The position numbers were made by a program, and so were the translations under genes. DNA of 64,000 nucleotides from Bacilli bacterium (GTDB taxonomy: Bacteria; Bacillota_I; Bacilli_A; RFN20; CAG-826): assembly GCA_035353055.1 (NCBI GenBank), contig DAOPYW010000001.1:21687-85686 (forward strand), given 5' to 3'. This document shows positions 3,034 through 55,553 of this stretch, in pieces (position 1 is the stretch's first letter; every line of letters starts with the position of its first letter). A model generated the notes under the pieces. The model searched no databases. It was not told the DNA's origin and saw only the letters and a program-made list of their open reading frames with translations.

Positions 3034-4162
3034 AAGAGTGATGCGATGCTATCACTGCGGTGAAGTTTTGCAAAGCAAAAAAGAGAACGAAAAAGGCTTT
3101 ATTGCTAATCAGATTTTATCCGCTCCTAATGCCGAAAAGGAAGTTTTATACTGCGATAGTTGCTATGAAAAAATGAAAGCGATCAACACTGGAATGCTCG
3201 AAAGAGATGCTGATGAAGAAATATTGACCATCCTCGAAGATGCTGTCGCTACTGATGCAGTCATCGTCTGGGTCGTCGACCTGTTTTCATTTAACGGAAC
3301 ATTAAATCCAGATGTCATTAACAAAGTTAAGAAATTAAAAGTCATCATTGCCGGAACCAAATTTGACTTGTTCCCCAAGAATGTCGAAAAAGAGCAGCTC
3401 GTTACTTTTTTAAAGGAGCGCTTTGGCGAAGCGGGGTTAATTCCTTGTGAAATCGTCTTGTTTGGCAATACTGATGGCATAGATGTCGAAAAAATGCTCG
3501 ATAAGTTATCCGAAGTCCGCGCAGGCCATGATGTCTACATGATCGGCTCCGTAGCTTCCGGAAAAACCACATTGATTAATCGAATGCTCAAATCATATAA
3601 GAATACCACTCGCCGCCCTATAAGAACCGAGACTTATCCTGGCACATCCGTAAAATTGTTAGATATTCCATTTTCGAACTCGGCTTCATTTTATGAAGTT
3701 CCAGGCTTTTCTTTGGTGACATCTGTCCTTGGAAAAGTGGAAAAAGATATCCAAAAAATGATTATTCCTAAAAAGGAAATCAAGATGACATTGAAAACCT
3801 TATCTCCGGGCGATGCTCTGCTTATCGGATCTCTCGCTAGTTATCAATTGATTAGCGGGAAAGCGACGATATTTAAGCTTTACACTGCAGAGATGGTGGA
3901 GACGAAAAAGATTCCCACCAAAAAAATGCGCGAAGTTTTACAAGACAACTTCGACAGGAAGTTTTTAAGGCCAGTCAGCTCAAGATTTACTACTTTCACT
4001 GATTACGATTTGTTTGATTACACGATGGAGAACGACGGACGGGTGCACGATATTGGTATCGCTGGCCTCTGCTGGATTTCTTTTGTCGCTAGGGGGCAAG
4101 TCATCCGCGTTTTATTCCCGAAGGGTGCCGCATTAAAAGAATATTTAGGAAAGTTGAGATAA
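3020..4162 (+). CDS. yqeH: Ribosome-biogenesis GTPase YqeH (circularly permuted GTPase with an N-terminal Zn finger)
   Basis: The N-terminal CYHCG…CDSC zinc ribbon, the GSVASGKTTLIN P-loop, and the position after yqeG all fit YqeH. Confidence 0.8.
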   Translation: MGKVKRVMRCYHCGEVLQSKKENEKGFIANQILSAPNAEKEVLYCDSCYEKMKAINTGMLERDADEEILTILEDAVATDAVIVWVVDLFSFNGTLNPDVINKVKKLKVIIAGTKFDLFPKNVEKEQLVTFLKERFGEAGLIPCEIVLFGNTDGIDVEKMLDKLSEVRAGHDVYMIGSVASGKTTLINRMLKSYKNTTRRPIRTETYPGTSVKLLDIPFSNSASFYEVPGFSLVTSVLGKVEKDIQKMIIPKKEIKMTLKTLSPGDALLIGSLASYQLISGKATIFKLYTAEMVETKKIPTKKMREVLQDNFDRKFLRPVSSRFTTFTDYDLFDYTMENDGRVHDIGIAGLCWISFVARGQVIRVLFPKGAALKEYLGKLR

Positions 4163-35089: not shown

Positions 35090-35235
35090 AATGTCCCTCC
35101 TTATCAATTCACTAATGACTCGCTATTAAGGTATCTTAATAGATTTTAAAACCTTTTCTATGCGGTTGTAGCTTGTGAGGCGACAACGTTTGTAATATAA
35201 CATATGTTATAAAGGGGTGTCAATTTACTTTTCAC
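35090..35235 (-). promoter_or_regulatory. rplU promoter plus a structured 5' leader of about 100 nt (possible L21-leader-type autoregulatory element)
   Basis: On the minus strand TTGACA-17nt-TTATAT is followed by an imperfect hairpin (GTTGT/ACAAC arms with offset pairing) ahead of the RBS. Firmicutes rplU operons commonly carry an r-protein leader. Confidence 0.35.
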
Positions 35236-36159: not shown

Positions 36160-38754
36160 TTAGGAAAGTTTTTCTTTCTTGTCTAAGAGAGACTGGAGAT
36201 TTTCTCGGTGCTTATTTAACTTACTTTTTTCTAATTCAATTTTCTCTTGCGGAGCTTTGCTGAGGAAGTTGGCGTTGGTGAGCATTTTCTCAGCGCGAGC
36301 GATTTCGCTTACAGCTTCGAGAATTTCCTTGTTGATGCGAGCGATGATTTCATCGCGCCCTGCTTCATTATTGATCAGCATGTCACCATGGTCGTAAATC
36401 TTTAACTCGCCACGCCTTGAGATGATATCTTCGCCGATGACTTTGACATCGCTAAAGGTGAATCGCTTTAGATAGGTAAAGAAGTTATCAAATACCGCGA
36501 TTTTTAAGTTGATGAATAAAGTGAGATTGGCGTTTGGTGCGAGCTTATTTTCAATCTTGTAATTGCGAGCATCTCTGATCATCGAGAACAGCATATTCAC
36601 TTCATCATTGACGCTGCTATCAATCAAATTTTCTTCGACTAATGGATAGCTTTCTTCCATCACTGATGGGAGATGTCCGGGTAAAGAAAGATATAATTCT
36701 TCGGCGATAAATGGAGTGTATGGGTAGATTAAAAGGATGATTGATTTCAAACACTTAAAGAGGATTTGATGAGTGGTTTTAACGCTCGCTTCATCATTCG
36801 ATGATAAGGAGACTTTGCTCATTTCAAGATACTGAGAGCAGAAATCATCGTAGACAAAGTTATAGAGGTGGCTACTCGCCGCATTGAAATCGTATTTTTC
36901 CATGTTGGTCGTCACCTTTTCAATCGTGTCTTCTAAGCGGTTGATGATCCATTGATCAAGCGGTGAAAGCGCTAAATGTTTGATATTAATCGCAGAGAAA
37001 TCTTCTGGCAACACGCTCAAGACATAGCGAGCGGAATTCCAAATTTTGTTGAGATAGTTGGCGGCAGAAGCAACCTTTTCTTCGATATATCTCATATCTT
37101 GTCCGGGGGTGCTGTTGGTCGTCAAGAAATAACGGAGAGCATCAGCGCCATATTTCTCGGCTTCCTGAATTGGGTCGACACCATTGCCTAGTGTCTTGCT
37201 CATCTTTCTTCCTAAATTGTCGCGGACTAATCCGTGGATCACTGCCTCCTTAAAAGGAGCGCGATGAGTGAGTTCCAATGATTGGAAAATCATGCGGCTG
37301 ACCCAGAAGAAAATAATATCGTAGCCTGTCACGAGAACATTCGTGGGGAAATAGCGTTTAAAATCAGGAGTCATATCCGGCCATCCAAAAGTCGAGAAAG
37401 GCCATAAGGCGCTGGAGAACCAGGTATCGAGAACATCGGAGTCTTGAATCCAATTTTCCATATCTTTAGGAGCATCAACGCTGACTAATAGCTCTCCGGT
37501 TTGTTTGTTGGTGTAAGCGGGAATGCGATGCCCCCACCATAGCTGGCGGGAAATGCACCAGTCTTCGACTTTCTCCATCCACTGGATGAAGATCTTCTCA
37601 AATCTATCAGGGATAAAATTGACTTTTTGATCGGAGTTTTGATTCGCAAGAGCTTGCTCAGCGAGAGGCTTCATTCTCACAAACCACTGCTTAGAGAGCA
37701 TCGGTTCCACGACCGCGTTGCTTCTCTCACTGTGGCCGACTGGATGAATCATGTCTTCAATCTTGACAAAATTGCCATCCTTTTTAATTTGTTTAAGCAA
37801 GCTCTCGCGGCAGACAAATCGATCTTGCCCTTCATAGGGACCACAGAGATGATTCATCGTCGCATTCTTATTAAAGATAATAGGTTTTTCTAAATGATAT
37901 TTTTCGCCGATTACGAAATCGTTGGGGTCGTGAGCAGGAGTGCATTTCATCGCTCCCGTGCCAAAGCTGGTATCGACATACTCATCAGCGATGATAGGAA
38001 TGGCTTGATTGTTGGCGGGATTAATAACCTTCAGGCCGATATATTTTTGATAGCGTTTATCGGCTGGATTGACCACGACGCACACATCGCCAAACATCGT
38101 CTCTGGACGAGTGGTAGCGATGATCAAAGATTCTTTGGTGCCAATGATAGGATATTTGAAGTAGTACATTTTGCCTGGATCATCTTGGTGAATGACTTCG
38201 ATATTGCTCAAGGCCGTCATCTGGACTGGATCCCAGTTAATGATGCGCTCACCCTGATAGATGAGGCCGCGATTATAGAGATCGACAAATACTTTTCTTA
38301 CCGCGGCGTTCAGCCTTTCATCAAGGGTGAATCTCTCGCGGGAATAGTCGAGTGATAATCCGAGAATCTTCCATTGTTCATGAATGGAATTCGCGTATTC
38401 ATCTTTCCACTTCCACGCCCACTTTAAAAACTCTTCGCGAGTGATTTTTGTCACGTCAATGCCCGATTTTACGAGCTTTTCCATCACTTTGGCTTGGGTG
38501 GCGATGCCGGCGTGGTCCATGCCTGGCAAATAGCACACATCAAAACCTTTCATTCTCTTGTAGCGAGCGATGATATCTTGAATGGTCGTATCCCATGCGT
38601 GGCCAATATGTAATTTGCCTGTGACGTTTGGAGGCGGAATAACAATTGAGAACGGAACCTTTTTAGGGTCTCCAGCATGAAAATAGCCACCGTCTTTCCA
38701 GCGGTCGTATTTCCCTTCTTCTACAGCGCGATGATCATAGCGTTTGTCTAGCAT
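36160..38754 (-). CDS. valS: Valine--tRNA ligase
   Basis: The HIGH motif (KLHIGHAWD), the KMSKS motif (RKMSKTLGN) and a C-terminal coiled coil are present. It is 864 aa. Confidence 0.95.
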   Translation of the reverse strand: MLDKRYDHRAVEEGKYDRWKDGGYFHAGDPKKVPFSIVIPPPNVTGKLHIGHAWDTTIQDIIARYKRMKGFDVCYLPGMDHAGIATQAKVMEKLVKSGIDVTKITREEFLKWAWKWKDEYANSIHEQWKILGLSLDYSRERFTLDERLNAAVRKVFVDLYNRGLIYQGERIINWDPVQMTALSNIEVIHQDDPGKMYYFKYPIIGTKESLIIATTRPETMFGDVCVVVNPADKRYQKYIGLKVINPANNQAIPIIADEYVDTSFGTGAMKCTPAHDPNDFVIGEKYHLEKPIIFNKNATMNHLCGPYEGQDRFVCRESLLKQIKKDGNFVKIEDMIHPVGHSERSNAVVEPMLSKQWFVRMKPLAEQALANQNSDQKVNFIPDRFEKIFIQWMEKVEDWCISRQLWWGHRIPAYTNKQTGELLVSVDAPKDMENWIQDSDVLDTWFSSALWPFSTFGWPDMTPDFKRYFPTNVLVTGYDIIFFWVSRMIFQSLELTHRAPFKEAVIHGLVRDNLGRKMSKTLGNGVDPIQEAEKYGADALRYFLTTNSTPGQDMRYIEEKVASAANYLNKIWNSARYVLSVLPEDFSAINIKHLALSPLDQWIINRLEDTIEKVTTNMEKYDFNAASSHLYNFVYDDFCSQYLEMSKVSLSSNDEASVKTTHQILFKCLKSIILLIYPYTPFIAEELYLSLPGHLPSVMEESYPLVEENLIDSSVNDEVNMLFSMIRDARNYKIENKLAPNANLTLFINLKIAVFDNFFTYLKRFTFSDVKVIGEDIISRRGELKIYDHGDMLINNEAGRDEIIARINKEILEAVSEIARAEKMLTNANFLSKAPQEKIELEKSKLNKHRENLQSLLDKKEKLS

Positions 38755-38985
38755 ATGCTACCTCCGGGACGTAAAATAAAACGCCCTTATCTAAGGACGC
38801 TCATGGCGCGGTACCACCTTAGTTCATCTTTCGATGCACTTCATTAACCTATTTTCGCTAGGCAGCTATCTCTCAGAAGCGACCTTCTCTCATTCTCCTT
38901 ATCGAGCTTCCACCGTCCTCGATTCTCTATATAGGAAGAATAAGGTACTCCTCTTCTTCAACGAGCTATGTATTAAGTCTAGTAT
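38755..38985 (-). promoter_or_regulatory. T-box riboswitch leader of valS
   Basis: On the minus strand the conserved T-box sequence AACTAAGGTGGTACCGCG sits at 38806-38823. A terminator hairpin (CGTCCTTA…TAAGGGCG) plus TTTTATTTT lies immediately before the valS RBS. Confidence 0.8.
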
Positions 38986-45086: not shown

Positions 45087-45118
45087 AAAAGTAAGATGGT
45101 CGCCCATCTTACTTTTTA
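45085..45118. terminator. Bidirectional rho-independent terminator between convergent yggS and aguB
   Basis: The perfect hairpin AGTAAGATGG-TCGC-CCATCTTACT is flanked by an A-run and a T-run. Confidence 0.7.
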
Positions 45119-45983
45119 TGATTGTCAGTTACTGACAATTTTAATATGTCTTTGTAGAGGTCTACGCGGCGATCGCGGAAGACTCCCCAGCCTTCTCTTT
45201 CTTCGCTGATCTTCTTTAAATCAAACTCCACGACGCGGAAGCCGGTGGATTCGCGGTCCATCTCTTCGACGACGTTGCCATATTCATCGGAGATGAAGGA
45301 AGAGCCAAAGAAGGTCATGCTTGAGCCATCTTGCTCTTCAATTCCGACGCGGTTAGAAGCGATGACGGGAATGATATTCGCTGCCGCATGTCCACACATG
45401 ACGTTTTGCCAATGCGCTTTGCTGTCTTTAGGAAGGACAGGCTCACTGCCGATGGCAGTGGGATATAGCAAAATCTCCGCTCCTTTGAGAGCCATGATAC
45501 GCGCGGCTTCGGGGAACCATTGATCCCAGCAGATGCCGACACCTAAAATGCCATACTTTGTTTTAAAGGTTTTAAAGCCAGTATCACCGGGAGTGAAATA
45601 GAATTTTTCTTCGTAGCACTGGCCGGTGGGAATGTGCGATTTGCGATATAAGTCTACGACTTTGCCATCAGCATCGATGACTGCGAGGGAATTGAAGTAA
45701 CAATTGCCCGCTTTTTCAAAGAATGAAATGGGCAGGACGACATCGTATTTTTTAGCCATCTCTTGATAATGCTTGATCAAAGGAGAATCTTCGGCGGATT
45801 GCGCTAAAGCAAAATGATTGTAGTTTTCGGTCTGGCAGAAATAAGGGGCTTGAAATAGCTCGGGGAGAAGGATGATATTGGCACCTTTTTGACTGGCTAA
45901 GGCAATCAGAGCATCAGCTTGCTGAATGTTTTGCTCTAGTTGCCAAGACATCGACATCTGAGTGCAGCACACTTTAACTTTCA
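45109..45983 (-). CDS. aguB: N-carbamoylputrescine amidase (carbon-nitrogen hydrolase family)
   Basis: The nitrilase-superfamily triad context (…LLPELF…, …GICWDQWFPE…) is present. The start ATG has RBS AAAGGAG. Its first 10 nt overlap the speA-aguA 3' end. Confidence 0.75.
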
Positions 45984-48592
45984 TGTTTTGCTCCTTTGGG
46001 TATCTGCATAGTAACGCAGTGGATATTTCCACCACCAATCAATATTTCTTTGGAATAAATCTGGATGACTTCTTTATCGGGGAAGATGGCTTTGAATTGC
46101 TCTAGAGCAATCTGATCTTCCTTGACTCCGAAGCCAGGAATGATAACAAAGCGGTCGCTCTGATAGAAGTTGATGTAGGTCGCTAAGAGATTGTCGCCCG
46201 CTTGGCGAGGCTTAGCGTTGTAGCGGCTGGCGGAGATGCCTTTAGCTTCTTTAGTTGATAAATATATCGGAGCGGGCATCTTGACTTTAGTCACTTTGAG
46301 AGTTCGTCCATGAGCGTCTTTCGTGGTCTCGAGAATTTTTAGGGCTCTAGTGGCAGCGCTATATTGAACTTTGTCGGCGGTTGATGGCCAAGCCAGCAAG
46401 ACTTCGCCGGGGCGAGCAAACGCCACCATGTTATCGACGTGCTCATCAGTCTCATCGCCGATGATGCCATGGGGAATCCAGATGATGTCGTTGACGCCGA
46501 GGTATACTTTGAGGGTTTCCTCGATTTCAGCTTTGCTGAGATGAGGGTTGCGCCCTTTGGAGAGGAAGCAAGCTTCGGTGACGATGAGGGTGCCATCGCC
46601 ATCCGTGGCAATCGCACCGCCCTCCATGACGAAGGAAGGCAAGCGGTAACTTGAGAGCTTGAATTTCTTGACGATGTTATTGCCTAAGGCATCATCATCT
46701 TGATAGTTGGTGTATAAGCCATCGTACTCGCCGCCCCAAGCATTGAAGCGGAAGTCGACGCTGCGGATATCGTTCTGCTTGTTGCGCAGGAAAATAAGCG
46801 TGTTATCGCGTGCCCAAGCGTCGTTGTAGCGAACTTTGATGGGAATGACGTTGGGAATATTTTCGAGCCACGCAAGGCTCTTTTTATATATTGTCGGGTG
46901 AACTCCGACATAGACCTTTTCGAATTTTGCGATTGTCGCGATTAATTCGCGGTATTCTTCAGTAGCGTCTTTGGCGTGGTTGCGCCAGACATCGCTGCGG
47001 AAGGGCAGGAGGATGATCGTTCCATCATGCTTATCGCCTTCAAAAGGCAAGTAATAGCCATCTCTTCGGGGAGTAGTCTGCTCATTTTTGACGTAATCAT
47101 GCAATCTTTTCTTATAGAAAGAGAAGTTTTTCCATCTCTCTTCATCGACGATTTCCACTAGCTCGCAATTGGGATGATTGGATAAAATCGTGCACTGCTT
47201 GTTCAAGCCATCTTCGATTTGGAAGATGATGTCTTTGGAAAAGACTTCGCCCGCTTGGATGAGCGGGATTCCCGGAGGGTAGATGACAATGGATTCTTTG
47301 CTGATGTGATTCAAGGCTTGGCGGAGCGGAACTGCAAGGCTCGGAGCGAAGAAAGCCGTTCTCGGTCTGGCGAGCATAAAGCCATATTTAAAGGCAAAGG
47401 AATGCATCGGATAAGTCTGATTCTTGTGGAAGTGCTCTTTAGAGATGCTCTTCAGAGCTTTGACTAAGGCGTTGAGGTGAGCATCGGTCGTTCCGAGGGC
47501 TAAGATGCAGAGGATGACGTAGGTTTCCGCTAGCTCGACTTGCACATGGTAGCGAGTTTTTAAAAGGCGGTAGACTTCGTAGCCGTTGATATCGAGGCGA
47601 TCGAGTTCAATCAAGAGCTTGGTTTTATCGTAGTTAAAAGCCCCGGAGGATTTGAAGTAATCTTTCCCGCGGACGATGAAGCCGGGAATCTTGTTGATTT
47701 CATCAAAAGCTCTCTCGCTGATAGCGATTACTCGCTTGGAGACCTCTTCACCATGCTCAGCGATGTAAGCGCGAGCGGCATCCAAAGAGCCGATCAATAT
47801 TGAGCTCGGTGAGGTGGTATTCATAAGGTTGAGAGTCTCTTGAATCTTGATATTGGAGACGCGGTCACCTTTTAATAATAAAACCGAGGACTGAGTGAGC
47901 GAACCGGCGGTCTTATGGAAGGAGACGGAGCTGAGATCCGCTCCAGCATCCATCGCGGTGACAGGATCGTTGTTGGTCAAGTAGTAATGCGCGCCATGCG
48001 CCTCATCGACGATGACGGCCATGTTTCTCTCGTGGGCGAATTCCACGATTGAGCGCAGGTCAGCGATGACGCCAAAATAAGTCGGGTTGATCACGACAAC
48101 GGCTTTTGCGGAAGGATAGCGCTGGATCATTTTTTTATATTCCTCTAAAGAGGGTTGATTAGCAATTTCAATGTTCGCATCGATGTGGGGTTCCACATAG
48201 ATGGGGACGGCGCCAGAGAGAACTAAGGCGTTTGTTAAAGATTTATGGACATTGCGGGGAATGATGATCTTATCGGTCGGCTTGCAGACCGTCATCACCG
48301 CGGCGATGAGACCCGAAGAAGTGCCGTTAATTAAAAAATAAGCGTAGTCTGCGTGACAGACTTCCGCCATTAATTTCTCACTTTGCAAAATAACCCCGCT
48401 AGGGTGGGCTAAATTATCTAATCCATAAGGGGCATTGACATCGCATTGGTAGACCTTTTTGCCGACGAGATCAGTCATCTCATTTTTGATGTTGCCCATG
48501 TGGTGTCCAGGTACATCAAAAGGGGATATCCCTTCATTAACATAGCTCTTTAGAGCATCTACAAAAGGCGTCTGAATGTCTTTCTTGTCCAT
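45974..48592 (-). CDS. Fusion of Orn/Lys/Arg-decarboxylase-family arginine decarboxylase (N-terminal) and agmatine deiminase (C-terminal)
   Basis: The N-terminal half matches the SpeA-type PLP decarboxylase (FDVPGHHMG, SFHKTAGSL). The C-terminal half matches AguA (YNDAWARD, FNAWGG, KGRNPHLSK, GGGNIHCVTMQ). It is a single 872-aa ORF. Confidence 0.8.
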   Translation of the reverse strand: MDKKDIQTPFVDALKSYVNEGISPFDVPGHHMGNIKNEMTDLVGKKVYQCDVNAPYGLDNLAHPSGVILQSEKLMAEVCHADYAYFLINGTSSGLIAAVMTVCKPTDKIIIPRNVHKSLTNALVLSGAVPIYVEPHIDANIEIANQPSLEEYKKMIQRYPSAKAVVVINPTYFGVIADLRSIVEFAHERNMAVIVDEAHGAHYYLTNNDPVTAMDAGADLSSVSFHKTAGSLTQSSVLLLKGDRVSNIKIQETLNLMNTTSPSSILIGSLDAARAYIAEHGEEVSKRVIAISERAFDEINKIPGFIVRGKDYFKSSGAFNYDKTKLLIELDRLDINGYEVYRLLKTRYHVQVELAETYVILCILALGTTDAHLNALVKALKSISKEHFHKNQTYPMHSFAFKYGFMLARPRTAFFAPSLAVPLRQALNHISKESIVIYPPGIPLIQAGEVFSKDIIFQIEDGLNKQCTILSNHPNCELVEIVDEERWKNFSFYKKRLHDYVKNEQTTPRRDGYYLPFEGDKHDGTIILLPFRSDVWRNHAKDATEEYRELIATIAKFEKVYVGVHPTIYKKSLAWLENIPNVIPIKVRYNDAWARDNTLIFLRNKQNDIRSVDFRFNAWGGEYDGLYTNYQDDDALGNNIVKKFKLSSYRLPSFVMEGGAIATDGDGTLIVTEACFLSKGRNPHLSKAEIEETLKVYLGVNDIIWIPHGIIGDETDEHVDNMVAFARPGEVLLAWPSTADKVQYSAATRALKILETTKDAHGRTLKVTKVKMPAPIYLSTKEAKGISASRYNAKPRQAGDNLLATYINFYQSDRFVIIPGFGVKEDQIALEQFKAIFPDKEVIQIYSKEILIGGGNIHCVTMQIPKGAKHES

Positions 48593-52589: not shown

Positions 52590-52699
52590 CGGTGTTTAAT
52601 CCTTTAATGTTATAAGCATTTTAGCACATCCCATCGAATTTCTTGGCAAAAATTGTGCGATTGAAATTGTTTGACAGGTTATATAAGCTTGCGATAGAG

Positions 52700-52966
52700 T
52701 AATAGCCAAAGACAGTGCGAAAGAGAAAGATATCACGAATCTGATAGAGAGTTTGCGGTTGGTGGAAGCAAATAGAGAACGATATGCAATATACACTTTC
52801 AAGTCGAATCGCTGAACTGACAGTAGGCGACTCCGGAAATCCTCCGTGACAGGGATAAGAGTTATATGACTCGATGAGTGATGGCAAACGCCATAAGATG
52901 GGTGGTACCGCGGAAATCATACGATCTTCGTCCCATAACTAGGGGGAGAAGATCGCTTTTTATTTT
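52700..52966 (+). promoter_or_regulatory. T-box riboswitch leader upstream of a tryptophanase/tyrosine phenol-lyase-family gene
   Basis: The T-box motif AAGATGGGTGGTACCGCGG sits at 52894-52912. The terminator ACGATCTTC…GAAGATCG plus CTTTTTATTTT is at 52921-52966. TTGACA at 52671 serves as a -35. Confidence 0.75.
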
Positions 52967-52993
52967 CTCGCTCCTGAGAAAGGAACATATTTT

Positions 52994-54445
52994 ATGTCTC
53001 ACATCGCCCGCTTCAAAGCTGAGCCTTTCCCATTAGAGATGCACAAGGCTCGCATCGTCCAGAAAATCACTCTGTTACCAATCAAAGAAAGATTAAAAGC
53101 CATCCAAGGGGCGGGAAACAACACCTTCTTATTAAGAAATCGCGACGTCTTCCTCGATATGCTGACCGACAGCGGCACGAATGCGATGAGCAATGAGCAG
53201 ATCGCTGCGATGAATATCGCTGATGACGCTTATGCGGGAAGCGAGACCTTCTATCGCTTAGAGAAAGCCGTCAATCGCTTTTTCGGCACGAAGTACTTCT
53301 TGCCTGCCCATCAAGGCCGAGCTTGCGAGCACATCTTGGCCAAGCAATATGTCAAGCCCGGGGATGTCGTCCCGATGAACTATCACTTCACCACCACAAA
53401 GGCTCATATCATGGAATGCGGTGGCACGGTCGAAGAATGCTTCATCGATGAGGCAGTAAAAACCACTAGCAATTGCCCATTCAAGGGTGATATGGACATG
53501 GATAAATTAAGAGCCATCGTCAATAAAGTCGGGAGCAACCATGTTCCCTTTATCAGAATCGAGCTAGGCACCAACCTCATCGGTGGTCAGCCCATCTCTT
53601 TAAGAAGCATTAAAGAAGTCAGCAGCTTTGCTCGCAAAGAAGGGATCATGATGGTCATCGACGCGAGCTTATTAGCGGATAATCTCTACTTCATCAAGCA
53701 GAGAGAAACAGCCTATAAAAATGCTGATACTCAAACCATCGTTCACGAGATCGCCAAATGCGCGGATATCATCTATTTCTCCGCTCGCAAGTTGGCCTGT
53801 GCGAGAGGCGGTGGATTAGCGATGCTCAGCCAGAAATACTTCGATGATATGAAATCTCTGGTACCACTATATGAAGGGTTCCTCACCTATGGTGGTATGT
53901 CCGTCCGAGAGATGGAAGCCATGGCAGTAGGCTTAGAAGAGACCCTCGACATGGATATGATCTCTCAGGGTCCTGAATTCATCAGTGAGTTCGCCTCACA
54001 ACTGCAAAAAGAAGGTATCCCCATTGTCACCCCCGCGGGAGGATTGGGACTACATATTAACGCGAGAGAATTCTTGCCTCATATCCGCGGCGAGCAATAT
54101 CCCGCGGGAGTGCTGGCCACCGCCATCTACCTCATCACTGGATCAAGAGGCATGGAAAGGGGCACCATTTCTGAAGCGCGCAACCCCGATGGTAGCGAGC
54201 ACATCGCTTCTGTGGAACTCGTCAGATTAGCGATGCCAAGAAGAGTATTCACTCTATCTCATATCACCTTTATGGTTGATCGTTTAGCGTGGCTATATAA
54301 AAATCGCGACCTAATCGGTGGCTTAAAGTTCATCGAAGAGCCACAAGTGCTCCGCTTCTTTATCGGACGCCTAGGAGAGATCGGCGATTGGCAGGAACGA
54401 TTAGTAGATAAATTCATCGAAGACTTTGGCAAAGACGCCTTATAG
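52994..54445 (+). CDS. Beta-eliminating lyase (tryptophanase/tyrosine phenol-lyase family, PLP-dependent)
   Basis: It is 483 aa with …FLLRNRDVFLDMLTDSGTNAMS…AGSE…FYRLE…, a PLP-lysine region …FSARKLA…, and the C-terminal …LKFIEEPQVLRFF. It is colinear with TnaA/TPL. Confidence 0.8.
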   Translation: MSHIARFKAEPFPLEMHKARIVQKITLLPIKERLKAIQGAGNNTFLLRNRDVFLDMLTDSGTNAMSNEQIAAMNIADDAYAGSETFYRLEKAVNRFFGTKYFLPAHQGRACEHILAKQYVKPGDVVPMNYHFTTTKAHIMECGGTVEECFIDEAVKTTSNCPFKGDMDMDKLRAIVNKVGSNHVPFIRIELGTNLIGGQPISLRSIKEVSSFARKEGIMMVIDASLLADNLYFIKQRETAYKNADTQTIVHEIAKCADIIYFSARKLACARGGGLAMLSQKYFDDMKSLVPLYEGFLTYGGMSVREMEAMAVGLEETLDMDMISQGPEFISEFASQLQKEGIPIVTPAGGLGLHINAREFLPHIRGEQYPAGVLATAIYLITGSRGMERGTISEARNPDGSEHIASVELVRLAMPRRVFTLSHITFMVDRLAWLYKNRDLIGGLKFIEEPQVLRFFIGRLGEIGDWQERLVDKFIEDFGKDAL

Positions 54446-54475: not shown

Positions 54476-54515
54476 AAAATACCCAGCATTATTGTCATTG
54501 GGTATTTTCTTTTGA
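54476..54515. terminator. Bidirectional rho-independent terminator between convergent tnaA-like and corA genes
   Basis: AAAAATACCCA-GCATTATTGTCA-TTGGGTATTTTCTTTTG. Confidence 0.7.
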
Positions 54516-54590: not shown

Positions 54591-55553
54591 CTATTTGATG
54601 CGATTGGTCATTTTAATCAAAACAATTGCACCCACGATGGAGAGAAGCAAACTGGCCCCGACGACGATGAAGAATCCAGCGGGAGAATCCCCGAGGGGAA
54701 TGTTCTTAAAATTCATTCCATAGAACGAAGCCACTAAGGTTGGGATGGAGAGAACGATGGTTATCACCGCTAAAACCTTCATCACGATATTGAGGTTATT
54801 AGAGATGATCGACGCGAAGGCATCCATGGTGCCAGCGAGAATGTCGCGGTAAACCGAGCACATGTCCACGGCCTGATTGAATTCGATCTCGGTATCTTCA
54901 AGCAAATCCAAGTCGCTCTCAAATTGGTTAAATTCAGGGCTGCGGGTCAGCTTATGGACAACTACTTTATTTGAATTTAGGGAGTTGGAGAAGTAAACAA
55001 GCGATTTATTTAATTCCATCAGATCAAATAGCTCCTTGTTTCGCAGAGAAGTATGCAGCTCTTTTTCCACCTCTTTTGACTGCGCATCAATTCGCTTCAG
55101 GAAAGTGATGTAAGACACGGCGAGGCGATAGAGGAATAGCAAGGTCAAACGAATGGTTTTGTGCGGTTCGATTTTTTTGTTTTTTGCGATTAGATCTTTT
55201 ACAAGATAGGTCTCTTGAGCGCTGATGGTAATCAGATGGTTATCGCAAAGAATAAGGGCGAACGGAATCGTTGTGTAAGCATATTTATTGTTTTTGCTCG
55301 TATCGAAGATCGGCAAATCTAAAATAATCAATTTGGCATTGTCATCGGTATCGATGTGAGAGCTTTCTTCTTCGTCGGTGGCGCTTTTTAAGAATTCAGG
55401 GGGGACATTAAACGTGATGCGCAACCATTCAATTTCTTGAGCGGTTGGGGCGATGACGTCGAGCCATGAATTGGCGATAATCTCGACATTTTCGGTGATT
55501 ATCACCTCTGATTTTTCTAGTTTGCTGTTTTTTTCAAAGTATTGGTTAATCAT
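54591..55553 (-). CDS. corA: CorA-family Mg2+/Co2+ transporter
   Basis: Two C-terminal TM helices carry the signature YGMNF. It is 320 aa. Confidence 0.85.
   Translation of the reverse strand: MINQYFEKNSKLEKSEVIITENVEIIANSWLDVIAPTAQEIEWLRITFNVPPEFLKSATDEEESSHIDTDDNAKLIILDLPIFDTSKNNKYAYTTIPFALILCDNHLITISAQETYLVKDLIAKNKKIEPHKTIRLTLLFLYRLAVSYITFLKRIDAQSKEVEKELHTSLRNKELFDLMELNKSLVYFSNSLNSNKVVVHKLTRSPEFNQFESDLDLLEDTEIEFNQAVDMCSVYRDILAGTMDAFASIISNNLNIVMKVLAVITIVLSIPTLVASFYGMNFKNIPLGDSPAGFFIVVGASLLLSIVGAIVLIKMTNRIK

What the first reader, a model, noticed from the sequence alone, without database searches (positions are those of the whole stretch)
52671..54445. T-box riboswitch controlling a tryptophanase/tyrosine phenol-lyase-family gene
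A canonical T-box (AAGATGGGTGGTACCGCGG at 52894-52912, with an antiterminator/terminator pair at 52921-52966 plus a U-run) lies in front of a 483-aa beta-eliminating lyase. T-boxes turn genes on when a specific tRNA is uncharged, and they normally control synthetases, biosynthetic enzymes or importers. A degradative tryptophanase/TPL under T-box control would only make sense if the enzyme is used in reverse to make the amino acid. That would mean Trp from indole plus Ser/Cys, or Tyr from phenol plus pyruvate plus NH3. Such a route would be a salvage pathway in an organism lacking the trp/tyr pathways. No aro/trp genes appear in the window, and aroD is missing from the yqe operon. Candidate specifier triplets are visible: UGG in GGUGGAAG at about 52764 and UAC in AAUAUACAC at about 52790. 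I could not fold Stem I reliably by eye.
Basis: partly seen in the sequence, partly recalled or inferred. Interest (0 to 1): 0.55.

Follow-up and report, generated by a model that had tools for sequence, protein, structure and literature searches.

The report
Tyrosine T-box controlling a TPL-like lyase
A genuine tRNA-Tyr-sensing T-box riboswitch switches on a tyrosine-phenol-lyase-like enzyme when tyrosine runs short, the opposite of how the known degradative enzyme is controlled, which suggests this widespread uncharacterised enzyme subfamily makes tyrosine rather than breaking it down.

Summary
Rfam's T-box model hits window 52706-52938 (+) at 101.5 bits (cutoff 93). A -19 kcal/mol terminator overlaps the antiterminator just before the 483-aa ORF.

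The specifier is UAC (Tyr) at 52792-52794, not UGG.

The enzyme is neither canonical TPL nor tryptophanase, scoring below both equivalog cutoffs. It belongs to a distinct, widespread third subfamily (41% identical to TPL, 37% to TnaA). The subfamily keeps TPL's phenol pocket (T124, M379, R381, F448/F449). It invariantly replaces residues near-universal in the rest of the family: R217L, K256R, H343L, V283P.

The link is conserved. 33 related loci carry a T-box, and all 32 with a readable Stem I have UAC. In lineages without T-boxes, including cultured Fusobacterium, the same gene follows short leader ORFs with tyrosine runs (YYYYYY, YYYSY, YYYTY).

Canonical tpl is induced by tyrosine through TyrR, so this logic is inverted. 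A tyrosine-supplying role (phenol plus pyruvate/NH4+, or plus Ser/Cys) is the best reading, but the catalytic direction is inferred. I found no prior report. Whether the genome lacks tyrosine biosynthesis could not be tested.

The parts
52671..52700 (+). Promoter-like site: TTGACA (52671-52676), 18-nt spacer, TAGAGT (52695-52700)
   Evidence: Consensus scan gives 10 of 12 matches. This is a pattern match only; the count of such sites in the region is no higher than in shuffles.
52706..52938 (+). T-box leader RNA (Stem I through the antiterminator)
   Evidence: Rfam RF00230: 101.5 bits against GA 93, E 3e-21, full-length match. My own covariance models R1 and R2 also hit it.
52706..52811 (+). 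Stem I, containing the GA/K-turn base, the specifier loop and the distal GGUUGGUGGAAGC motif
   Evidence: R1 scores 110.9 bits. On 31 distinct leaders, 89% of cells are paired, 15 of 16 pairs change on both sides, and the covariation score is 0.75 against at most 0.19 for slid controls.
52792..52794 (+). Specifier codon UAC (tyrosine), followed by A (52795) and the closing helix CUUU (52796-52799)
   Evidence: Read from the cmscan alignment. The context AUAUACACU is invariant in the 8 closest leaders. UAC sits at this column in all 30 on-target rows of A4 and in L008 and L024.
52895..52938 (+). T-box sequence and antiterminator; the bulge UGGU (52903-52906) would pair with the tRNA 3' NCCA end
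   Evidence: Sequence. R2 scores 48.3 bits, E 1.5e-10. GGUGGUA is invariant in 24 aligned leaders.
52922..52966 (+). Intrinsic terminator: hairpin 52922-52955 plus U-tract 52957-52966. Its 5' arm is shared with the antiterminator.
   Evidence: RNA fold -19.0 kcal/mol, z -3.69, 0 of 200 shuffles as stable.
52994..54445 (+). 483-aa PLP-dependent beta-eliminating lyase of a distinct TPL-like subfamily. AAGGA at 52980-52984 is the likely ribosome-binding site.
   Evidence: Pfam PF01212. NCBIfam NF009709 scores 577 bits (cutoff 285), but TIGR02618 (TPL) scores 447 against 721 and TIGR02617 (TnaA) 351 against 826. Best solved structures are TPL, E 2e-117. Residue analysis.
54476..54508 (+). Hairpin followed by CUUUUG after the stop codon; a likely terminator that makes the gene monocistronic
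   Evidence: RNA fold -12.8 kcal/mol, z -2.68. The next gene (CorA, 54591-55553) is on the opposite strand.

Best explanation
A transcription-attenuating T-box riboswitch specific for tRNA-Tyr controls a single gene for a TPL-like PLP enzyme.

How the switch works. When tRNA-Tyr is charged, the terminator at 52922-52966 forms and transcription stops. When tRNA-Tyr is uncharged, its anticodon GUA pairs with the UAC specifier and its free NCCA end pairs with the UGGU bulge. That stabilises the antiterminator and the lyase is made. The anatomy is shown here. The tRNA-dependent switching follows from the established T-box mechanism.

What the enzyme is. It belongs to a separate, widespread third branch of the tryptophanase/TPL family. 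This branch keeps TPL's tyrosine/phenol pocket but has its own invariant second-shell changes (shown).

What it most likely does. Expression is tied to tyrosine shortage, so the enzyme most likely supplies tyrosine by running TPL chemistry towards synthesis. The substrates would be phenol plus pyruvate and ammonium, or, more favourably, phenol plus serine, cysteine or O-acetylserine by beta-replacement. This would be a salvage route in anaerobes that meet phenol in their habitat. The direction and the substrates are inferred, not shown.
For: T-box anatomy:
- Rfam hit above the gathering score.
- Terminator z -3.7.
- Stem I covariation 0.75 against at most 0.19 in slid controls.

Specifier: UAC in all 32 leaders with a readable Stem I, from loci of 24-62% GC. 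The bulge reads UGGU in all of them.

Conservation of the link:
- All 9 genome loci with the full gene carry a T-box; they come from Acholeplasmataceae, Erysipelotrichaceae, Bacilli, Oscillospiraceae and Bacillota MAGs.
- 23 of 74 metagenome loci with enough upstream DNA carry one.
- 16 of 20 of those tested pass Rfam's own threshold.

Independent second signal: Tyr-run leader ORFs precede the same gene in T-box-less loci L068/L081 (Fusobacterium), L022/L062/L080 and L077.
- Of 15 such ORFs in 1.2 Mb, 6 end in the 3.3% of sequence just upstream of the gene. For six other amino acids combined the figure is 3 of 128.
- L068 and L077 have strong terminators right after the peptide.

Enzyme:
- K257, Y71, R100, N185, D214, R404 and the TPL-type T124, M379, R381, F448 and F449 are invariant in 125 members and in 88 further loci.
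- The clade is 41% identical to TPL and 37% to TnaA.

Contrast with the known enzyme: canonical tpl is induced about 32-fold by L-Tyr through TyrR and is catabolite-repressed (PMC10170061; PMC1173090).

Chemistry: TPL is reversible and does beta-replacement with Ser, Cys and O-acetylserine (PMC12943590).

Precedent: a Tyr T-box already controls an alternative tyrosine-forming enzyme, phenylalanine-4-hydroxylase, in the B. cereus group (PMC2494555).
Against: - No enzymology exists for any member of the clade, and no solved structure is closer than TPL.
- The thermodynamics of the pyruvate + NH4+ + phenol route favour breakdown, and synthesis is normally run at 1-10 mM phenol (PMC13174591). The source of phenol is unknown.
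- No conserved partner gene, such as a phenol-producing decarboxylase or a transporter, accompanies the lyase. DUF554 is adjacent in only about 3-4 loci.
- R217 and H343, near-universal in TPL and TnaA, are replaced by Leu, so the reaction itself may differ from TPL's.
- About 45 of the 74 metagenome loci with enough upstream DNA show neither a T-box nor a Tyr-run leader.
- For the leader-peptide loci, masking the Tyr codons did not reveal an antiterminator in equilibrium folds.
- AT-rich DNA produces some Tyr runs by chance.
- Absence of the shikimate/tyrA pathway in the host was not tested beyond the 64-kb window.
Confidence: 0.55

Rival explanations
1. The enzyme has changed reaction type. 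The Leu substitutions at R217 and H343 could have turned a TPL scaffold into a different tyrosine-forming or tyrosine-handling PLP enzyme that needs no phenol. One example would be an aminotransferase making Tyr from scavenged 4-hydroxyphenylpyruvate.
For: R217, K256 and H343 are near-universal across representatives of the TnaA/TPL family but are invariantly L, R and L in this clade. The Tyr-sensing regulation only requires that the product relieves tyrosine shortage.
Against: The residues specific to C-C cleavage and formation at the phenol ring are invariant: Y71, T124, R381, F448 and F449. That would be unexpected if phenol chemistry had been abandoned. No aminotransferase signature was found; the only Pfam hit is Beta_elim_lyase.
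Confidence: 0.12
2. The enzyme is a detoxifying lyase for a tyrosine analogue, such as m-tyrosine, DOPA or a halotyrosine. Such a compound would compete at TyrRS and raise uncharged tRNA-Tyr, so the T-box would act as a sensor of antimetabolite stress.
For: T-boxes respond to any cause of uncharged tRNA (established mechanism). TPL-family enzymes accept many ring-substituted tyrosines (PMC13174591, PMC12943590). The pocket differs from TPL at M288F and V283P.
Against: The same gene is found under Tyr-sensing control in very different habitats and phyla, which fits a general nutritional role better than defence against one compound. No resistance-type neighbours recur.
Confidence: 0.1
3. It is an ordinary catabolic tyrosine phenol-lyase, and the T-box association has no anabolic meaning. 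For example, the leader could be constitutively read through, or the lyase could be needed to recycle carbon and nitrogen during general starvation.
For: The best solved-structure matches are TPLs, E 2e-117. Some sources annotate clade members as tyrosine phenol-lyase. The thermodynamics favour cleavage (PMC13174591).
Against: Destroying tyrosine exactly when tRNA-Tyr is uncharged would be self-defeating. The terminator is strong and the leader is conserved with covariation across 30 or more loci, so it is under selection. Fusobacteria keep a separate canonical TPL alongside this paralog (PMC6424909, PMC9848294). Canonical tpl is induced by tyrosine (PMC10170061).
Confidence: 0.1
4. It is a tryptophanase, as NCBI and several MAG annotations name it.
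For: It matches the NCBIfam subfamily model NF009709, named 'tryptophanase', at 577 bits, and sources name it accordingly.
Against: The specifier is Tyr, not Trp. The TnaA-type residues D137, V394, I396 and H463 are T, M, R and F here. It falls below both TnaA equivalog cutoffs. In Fusobacterium the indole-producing TnaA is a different, 545-aa protein (PMC7857600, S1 Table), and deleting the gene named tnaA abolishes indole production (bioRxiv 10.1101/2023.01.20.524997).
Confidence: 0.03

Closest known systems
Bacillus subtilis tyrS T-box leader (the founding T-box; Tyr, UAC specifier)
   Same: Same RNA family (RF00230), same UAC specifier, a terminator/antiterminator switch, and a UGGN bulge that pairs with the tRNA acceptor end.
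   Different: It controls a lyase of the TnaA/TPL family instead of the tyrosyl-tRNA synthetase. No such target is listed in the T-box surveys I could read (PMC2494555; supplements of PMC3766115).
Tyr T-box upstream of phenylalanine-4-hydroxylase in the Bacillus cereus group (PMC2494555)
   Same: A tyrosine-specific T-box is placed on a non-canonical, single-step route to tyrosine.
   Different: A different enzyme and chemistry: hydroxylation of Phe there, and presumed C-C bond formation on phenol here. It is restricted to one group of Bacillus, whereas this link spans Bacilli and Clostridia MAGs.
Tyrosine phenol-lyase of Citrobacter freundii / Erwinia herbicola (EC 4.1.99.2)
   Same: Same fold and family. 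PLP Lys257, Tyr71, Arg100, Asn185, Asp214, Arg404 and the phenol pocket Thr124, Met379, Arg381, Phe448 and Phe449 are all conserved.
   Different: Only 41% identical and below the TPL equivalog cutoff. R217L, K256R, H343L, V283P, M288F and Y441E are fixed in the clade. The regulation is inverted: canonical tpl is activated by TyrR plus L-Tyr and is catabolite-repressed (PMC10170061).
Engineered 'tyrosine synthase' derived from TrpB (described in PMC13174591)
   Same: The proposed physiological reaction, phenol plus a three-carbon amino acid unit giving L-tyrosine, is the one this engineered enzyme performs.
   Different: An unrelated fold (fold-type II TrpB) that is man-made. The present enzyme is natural and its activity is untested.
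Leader-peptide attenuators of amino acid operons (pheL, hisL, trpL type) and the tnaC leader of E. coli tnaCAB
   Same: In T-box-less relatives the gene follows a short ORF with a run of codons for the cognate amino acid and then an intrinsic terminator (L068, L077), as in the pheL/hisL type. Like tnaC, it is a leader peptide in front of a TnaA-family lyase.
   Different: No antiterminator pairing could be shown. tnaC senses excess free Trp through a single Trp residue and Rho, which is the opposite logic to a Tyr-codon run.

Membership tests
T-box leader (Rfam RF00230) | Covariance-model score at or above the curated gathering score | tested here: met
   101.5 bits against 93, E 3e-21, model positions 1-219 of 219.
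T-box leader (Rfam RF00230) | Stem I with a specifier loop whose codon is followed by a purine and lies directly 5' of the closing helix | tested here: met
   UAC-A then CUUU pairing with AAAG. The helix covaries (AAAG/CUUU, GAAG/CUUC, GGAG/CUCC).
T-box leader (Rfam RF00230) | Conserved T-box sequence with a UGGN bulge in the antiterminator | tested here: met
   AAGAUGGGUGGUACCGCGG at 52895-52913. GGUGGUA is invariant in 24 aligned leaders.
T-box leader (Rfam RF00230) | Mutually exclusive antiterminator and terminator | tested here: met
   The terminator at 52922-52955 (-19 kcal/mol, z -3.7) shares CGAUCUUCGUCCC with the antiterminator 3' side. The antiterminator alone is weak (-10.5 kcal/mol, z -0.3), as expected for a helix that needs tRNA to be stabilised.
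T-box leader (Rfam RF00230) | Antitermination dependent on uncharged cognate tRNA | not testable with these tools
   Needs in vitro transcription with tRNA-Tyr. No tRNA gene lies in the window.
Tyrosine phenol-lyase (EC 4.1.99.2; NCBIfam TIGR02618 equivalog) | Equivalog model score at or above the cutoff | tested here: not met
   446.7 bits against a cutoff of 720.7.
Tyrosine phenol-lyase (EC 4.1.99.2; NCBIfam TIGR02618 equivalog) | Catalytic and phenol-binding residues K257, Y71, R100, N185, D214, R404, T124, R381, F448 | tested here: met
   All are invariant in 125 clade sequences aligned with C. freundii TPL and in 88 loci.
Tyrosine phenol-lyase (EC 4.1.99.2; NCBIfam TIGR02618 equivalog) | R217, K256 and H343, near-universal in both TPL and TnaA | tested here: not met
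   L, R and L, invariant in the clade. Nearly all other 50%-identity representatives of the family keep R, K and H.
Tyrosine phenol-lyase (EC 4.1.99.2; NCBIfam TIGR02618 equivalog) | Substrate induction (TyrR plus L-Tyr) as a catabolic gene | tested here: not met
   It sits under a Tyr T-box, a starvation-ON switch. Canonical regulation is described in PMC10170061.
Tyrosine phenol-lyase (EC 4.1.99.2; NCBIfam TIGR02618 equivalog) | Reversible Tyr <-> phenol + pyruvate + NH4+ activity | not testable with these tools
   I found no biochemical data for any clade member.
Tryptophanase (EC 4.1.99.1; TIGR02617 / NF053783 equivalogs) | Equivalog score at or above the cutoff, and the indole-pocket residues D137, V394, I396, H463 (E. 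coli numbering) | tested here: not met
   351.5 against 825.8 and 388.2 against 750. The residues are T, M, R and F.
NCBIfam NF009709 (PRK13238, TnaA/TPL-like subfamily) | Subfamily model score at or above the cutoff | tested here: met
   576.7 bits against 285. This explains the 'tryptophanase' name in public annotations.
Leader-peptide transcription attenuator (in relatives L068/L081, L077, L022/L062/L080) | Short ORF with a ribosome-binding site and a run of codons for the regulating amino acid | tested here: met
   MLNNIFTNISYYYYYYTECSIS, MNKVTFTFAANYYYTYTRYRV and ...Y[YS]YSY[FL]CPS.... Positional enrichment.
Leader-peptide transcription attenuator (in relatives L068/L081, L077, L022/L062/L080) | Terminator with an alternative antiterminator pairing exposed by a stalled ribosome | tested here: inconclusive
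   Terminators are clear in L068 and L077 (z -5.3 and -3.6). Folds with the Tyr codons masked still keep the terminator.

The most novel reading that the evidence does not exclude
This clade is a natural tyrosine synthase: a TPL-derived PLP enzyme whose physiological job is to build L-tyrosine from environmental phenol and a three-carbon donor. It would be a fifth route to tyrosine. It would be used by many anaerobes, including Acholeplasma-like Bacilli, Clostridia and Fusobacterium, and evolution would have wired it to tRNA-Tyr charging at least twice independently, through the T-box and through Tyr-run leader peptides. The clade-specific R217L, K256R and H343L changes would be the adaptation that biases the enzyme towards synthesis.
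Probability: 0.4. Interest if true: 0.8.

Novelty: new variant of a known kind. Interest (0 to 1): 0.62.

Why it matters
Tyrosine is thought to be made in nature only from prephenate or arogenate, or by hydroxylating phenylalanine. TPL is treated as a degradative enzyme that chemists run backwards at high substrate concentration, and a tyrosine synthase exists only as an engineered TrpB.

A widespread natural TPL-like enzyme switched on by tyrosine starvation would add a salvage route that turns phenol, a toxic fermentation and uremic metabolite, into an amino acid. It would change how tyrosine auxotrophy is predicted from genomes of gut, oral and digester anaerobes. It would correct a large number of 'tryptophanase' annotations. 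It would also offer a ready-made biocatalyst scaffold for tyrosine analogues.

The hypothesis is directly testable, because cultured and genetically tractable Fusobacterium strains carry the gene.

Tried and rejected
- **Trp reading:** rejected. UGG at 52761 lies in the distal part of Stem I, and the specifier column is UAC in every leader.
- **Conserved operon partners:** all-against-all clustering of 362 neighbouring ORFs found no family in more than 5 of 88 loci. Pfam on 20 tightly linked neighbours gave unrelated functions, apart from DUF554 in 3 loci.
- **Hidden T-boxes in the loci without one:** a model of the T-box 3' domain (R2) found none, only a weak hit at E 3.2 in L063.
- **Antiterminator in the Tyr-run leaders:** constrained folds with a masked ribosome footprint kept the terminator, so that mechanism stays open.
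- **Nearest outgroups:** P0125 (47% identical, M217) sits inside an operon with a 90-nt gap. P0136, which has the canonical TPL signature, has a 66-nt gap. Neither has room for a T-box.
- **Is the Fusobacterium member the known TnaA or Fn-TPL?** No. TnaA there is 545 aa (PMC7857600, S1 Table), and fusobacterial TPLs are 76-82% identical to the C. freundii enzyme (PMC6424909). I could not obtain the primer or locus sequences from the tnaA-deletion papers, nor the Sasaki-Imamura 2010 paper.
- **Literature:** I found no paper that links T-boxes with TPL or tryptophanase. The one paper holding both 'T-box' and 'tyrosine phenol-lyase' (PMC7461572) was listed but not read. Vitreschak 2008 and Gutierrez-Preciado 2009 are not held, so their gene lists were not checked.
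- **Genome-wide presence of tyrA or the shikimate pathway:** not possible.
- **Structure prediction:** not run. The tool returns no coordinates, so it could not place L226, R265 and L351 relative to PLP.
Full report
**1. Observation**

Rfam's T-box model (RF00230) matches window 52706-52938 on the + strand over its whole length. The score is 101.5 bits against a gathering score of 93, E 3e-21.

A hairpin at 52922-52955 folds at -19.0 kcal/mol (z -3.7; none of 200 shuffles is as stable). It is followed by C-UUUUUAUUUU. Its 5' arm (CGAUCUUCGUCCC) is also the 3' side of the antiterminator, so the two structures exclude each other. The antiterminator alone is weak (z -0.3), as expected for a helix that needs tRNA.

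A promoter-like TTGACA-18-TAGAGT lies at 52671-52700 (a pattern match only). The ORF at 52994-54445 encodes 483 aa. A hairpin with a short U-run follows at 54476-54508, and the next gene is convergent, so the unit is monocistronic.

**2. Which amino acid**

In the cmscan alignment the specifier position reads UAC (52792-52794). It is followed by A and by the helix CUUU.

Eight leaders upstream of orthologs share an invariant AUAUACACU. The helix below the loop covaries: AAAG/CUUU, GAAG/CUUC, GGAG/CUCC.

I built a covariance model of Stem I (R1) and searched all fetched loci with it.
- All 30 on-target matches carry UAC in the specifier column, 29 followed by A and one by C.
- L008 and L024, read by eye, also have GAA-UAC-purine.
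- On this alignment 89% of cells pair and 15 of 16 pairs change on both sides. The covariation score is 0.75 against at most 0.19 when partners are slid.

The T-box bulge is UGGU in every leader. From established knowledge, the fourth base pairs with the tRNA discriminator, which is A73 in bacterial tRNA-Tyr. The switch is therefore tyrosine-specific.

**3. The enzyme**

Family scores:

| Model | Score (bits) | Cutoff (bits) |
|---|---|---|
| Pfam Beta_elim_lyase | 168.2 | 27 |
| NCBIfam NF009709 subfamily ("tryptophanase") | 577 | 285 |
| TIGR02618 TPL equivalog | 447 | 721 |
| TIGR02617 TnaA equivalog | 351 | 826 |
| NF053783 TnaA equivalog | 388 | 750 |

The best solved structures are TPLs (E 2e-117), ahead of tryptophanases (E 1e-85 to 1e-93).

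I aligned 125 clade members with C. freundii TPL and E. coli TnaA.
- The catalytic set is invariant: K257, Y71, R100, N185, D214, R404.
- The residues that tell TPL from TnaA are all of the TPL type: T124 (TnaA D137), M379 (V394), R381 (I396), F448 (H463).
- The clade fixes changes at positions where TPL and TnaA agree: R217L, K256R, H343L, V283P, E69D, T406A, Y441E.

Among 50%-identity representatives of the whole family, R217, K256 and H343 are nearly universal. Only this clade has L/R/L. One sister representative, P0125, has M217. The window protein is 41% identical to TPL and 37% to TnaA, while TPL and TnaA are 43% identical to each other. This is a third subfamily with a tyrosine-shaped pocket and altered second-shell catalytic residues.

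**4. How widespread, and is the link conserved**

Close relatives (66-87% identity, 482-483 aa) are numerous in public data and are mostly named "tryptophanase".

- **Genome loci.** Nine loci hold the full gene. They come from Acholeplasmataceae, Erysipelotrichaceae, Bacilli, Oscillospiraceae and Bacillota MAGs. Seven pass Rfam's T-box threshold. L008 has a sub-threshold T-box. L005 has the T-box 3' domain at its contig edge.
- **Metagenome loci.** A metagenome scan gave 80 more loci at 58-72% identity. All carry the clade signature, and their GC content ranges from 26 to 68%. Of the 74 with at least 250 nt upstream, 23 have a T-box. Sixteen of 20 tested pass Rfam's own threshold.
- **Loci without a T-box.** A second model, of the 3' domain (R2), found no further T-boxes. 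The nearest outgroup representatives have no room for one.

**5. An independent second signal**

In loci without a T-box, short upstream ORFs contain tyrosine runs:

| Loci | Leader peptide | Distance upstream |
|---|---|---|
| L068 / L081 | MLNNIFTNISYYYYYYTECSIS | starts 299 nt upstream |
| L077 | MNKVTFTFAANYYYTYTRYRV | starts 367 nt upstream |
| L022 / L062 / L080 | related leaders with Y[YS]YSY[FL]CPS, a shared CTTGACAA promoter and a GCCCCUC...GAGGGGC hairpin | start 114-200 nt upstream |

Statistics:
- Loci with at least 3 Tyr in 6 residues number 12 of 52. Shuffles give a mean of 3.9 and a maximum of 8.
- Over all 608,564 bp on both strands, only 15 small ORFs have at least 4 Tyr in 6 residues.
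- Six of those end within 450 nt upstream of the lyase start on its strand, a zone holding 3.3% of the sequence. For F, K, N, H, C and Q combined the figure is 3 of 128.
- One of the six (L083) is a T-box locus in 26%-GC DNA and is probably chance. L068 and L081 are near-identical.

L068 and L077 have strong terminators right after the peptide (z -5.3 and -3.6). However, folds with the Tyr codons masked still keep the terminator. The switching mechanism is therefore inferred by analogy with pheL/hisL-type attenuators, not shown.

**6. A cultured host**

The L068 protein falls in a 1,348-member cluster that includes "tryptophanase" of Fusobacterium polymorphum and F. animalis (WP_220302656.1). 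The same leader is present in the complete genome CP071094.1.

It is not the fusobacterial indole-forming TnaA. That protein is 545 aa (EGQ80312.1; PMC7857600, S1 Table), and deleting the gene named tnaA abolishes indole production (bioRxiv 10.1101/2023.01.20.524997). It is also not the canonical TPL, which in fusobacteria is 76-82% identical to the C. freundii enzyme (PMC6424909) and is annotated separately (PMC9848294). Fusobacteria therefore keep three paralogs, and the hypothesis can be tested genetically.

**7. Mechanism and function**

Shown here:
- the T-box anatomy;
- the Tyr specifier;
- the conserved linkage between leader and gene;
- the TPL-type pocket;
- the separate subfamily.

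Following from the established T-box mechanism: the gene is transcribed when tRNA-Tyr is uncharged.

Inferred: the enzyme relieves tyrosine shortage by forming tyrosine. TPL is reversible and also catalyses beta-replacement with Ser, Cys and O-acetylserine (PMC12943590). The pyruvate/NH4+ route is thermodynamically unfavourable and is usually run at 1-10 mM phenol (PMC13174591). A Ser- or Cys-dependent replacement, or a habitat rich in ammonium and phenol, would therefore make more sense.

Canonical tpl shows the opposite regulation: about 32-fold induction by L-Tyr through TyrR, plus catabolite repression (PMC10170061, PMC1173090). A precedent for a Tyr T-box on an alternative tyrosine-forming enzyme is phenylalanine-4-hydroxylase in the B. 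cereus group (PMC2494555).

**8. Weak points**

- There is no enzymology or structure for the clade.
- No partner gene recurs. DUF554 is adjacent in L079, L043 and L023 only.
- About 45 of the 74 metagenome loci with enough upstream DNA show neither regulatory signal.
- The R217L and H343L changes could mean a different reaction.
- The host's tyrosine pathway is unknown. At Pfam level the 64-kb window has only housekeeping genes, and the yqeG-yqeH-yhbY-nadD/yqeK cluster lacks aroD, but this says little about the whole genome.

**9. Novelty**

I found no paper that connects T-boxes with TPL or tryptophanase. The T-box target lists I could read do not include them (PMC2494555; supplements of PMC3766115). 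Two key T-box surveys are not held and could not be checked.

The RNA is an ordinary member of a known family. What is new is its target and what that implies for a large, mis-annotated enzyme subfamily. I therefore rate it a new variant of a known kind, with moderately high interest.

Noticed in passing
window 38790-38970 (-), upstream of ORF 36160-38754 (-): A second T-box that Rfam's gathering threshold missed. My Stem I and 3'-domain models hit it (E 0.049 and 8e-7). The specifier reads GUC (Val), and it precedes a valyl-tRNA synthetase (Pfam tRNA-synt_1 plus Val_tRNA-synt_C).
   Followed up: partly
window 35105-35177 (-): Ribosomal protein L21 leader (RF00559, 44.5 bits against 36) upstream of the rplU-Prp-rpmA genes.
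   Followed up: no
window about 45974-48592 (-) and 45109-45984 (-); L105 3289-5640: An 872-aa fusion of an Orn/Lys/Arg decarboxylase domain with an agmatine-deiminase (PAD_porph) domain, followed by a CN_hydrolase; this looks like a fused polyamine pathway. In Fusobacterium a 783-aa decarboxylase-arginase fusion lies directly upstream of the lyase leader. This may be coincidence.
   Followed up: no
window about 2.3-5.5 kb (+): A yqeG-yqeH-yhbY-nadD/yqeK cluster without the aroD gene that sits between yqeH and yqeI in B. subtilis. No aro, trp or tyr biosynthesis domains were seen anywhere in the window.
   Followed up: partly
proteins P0121-P0127, P0131-P0133, P0139, P0142: Proteins of about 850-930 aa with two matched stretches to the query, that is, tandem double TnaA/TPL-like domains. 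They are the next-best representatives after the clade itself.
   Followed up: no
L095 3778-3850 (+): [quoted passage not shown] ARAGORN does not call it, so it may be a tRNA-like element or a degenerate tRNA. This is also the only leader with C rather than a purine after UAC.
   Followed up: partly
L019 about 2440-2500 and L021 about 3360-3420: Two high-GC loci without T-boxes share a conserved motif (GTTTGAAGTGGT ... CCAAATGRCAGGA) about 88 nt upstream of the lyase start. It may be another regulatory element for the same gene.
   Followed up: no
L063 3922-3974 and L076 (same relative position): A shared GGAAAAAGGCAAAAT..GGGTGGTTGC segment that resembles a degenerate T-box bulge. It scores only E 3.2 with the 3'-domain model.
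   Followed up: partly
L079 1917-2741, L043 3379-4107, L023 696-1391: A DUF554 membrane protein lies on the same strand directly next to the lyase. In L079 and L043 it is downstream of the Tyr T-box (6 and 109 nt gaps), so it is probably co-regulated and is a candidate transporter.
   Followed up: partly
L031 3209-3308 (+): Pyrrolysine insertion sequence PYLIS_2 (RF02509, 64.6 bits against 36) just upstream of the T-box, implying a Pyl-containing methylamine methyltransferase gene in that bacterium.
   Followed up: no
L002 6597-6718 (-): c-di-AMP riboswitch (ydaO type, 77.5 bits) about 2.7 kb downstream of the lyase in a related MAG.
   Followed up: no
L068 3903-3986 and L077 1613-1657: In both terminator-bearing Tyr-run leaders a second small ORF (MKLLNFIAYKLFLLKEISKNNLIKIKI; MNKIRLNIYAPRGE) lies between the terminator and the lyase start. 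Its role is unknown.
   Followed up: no
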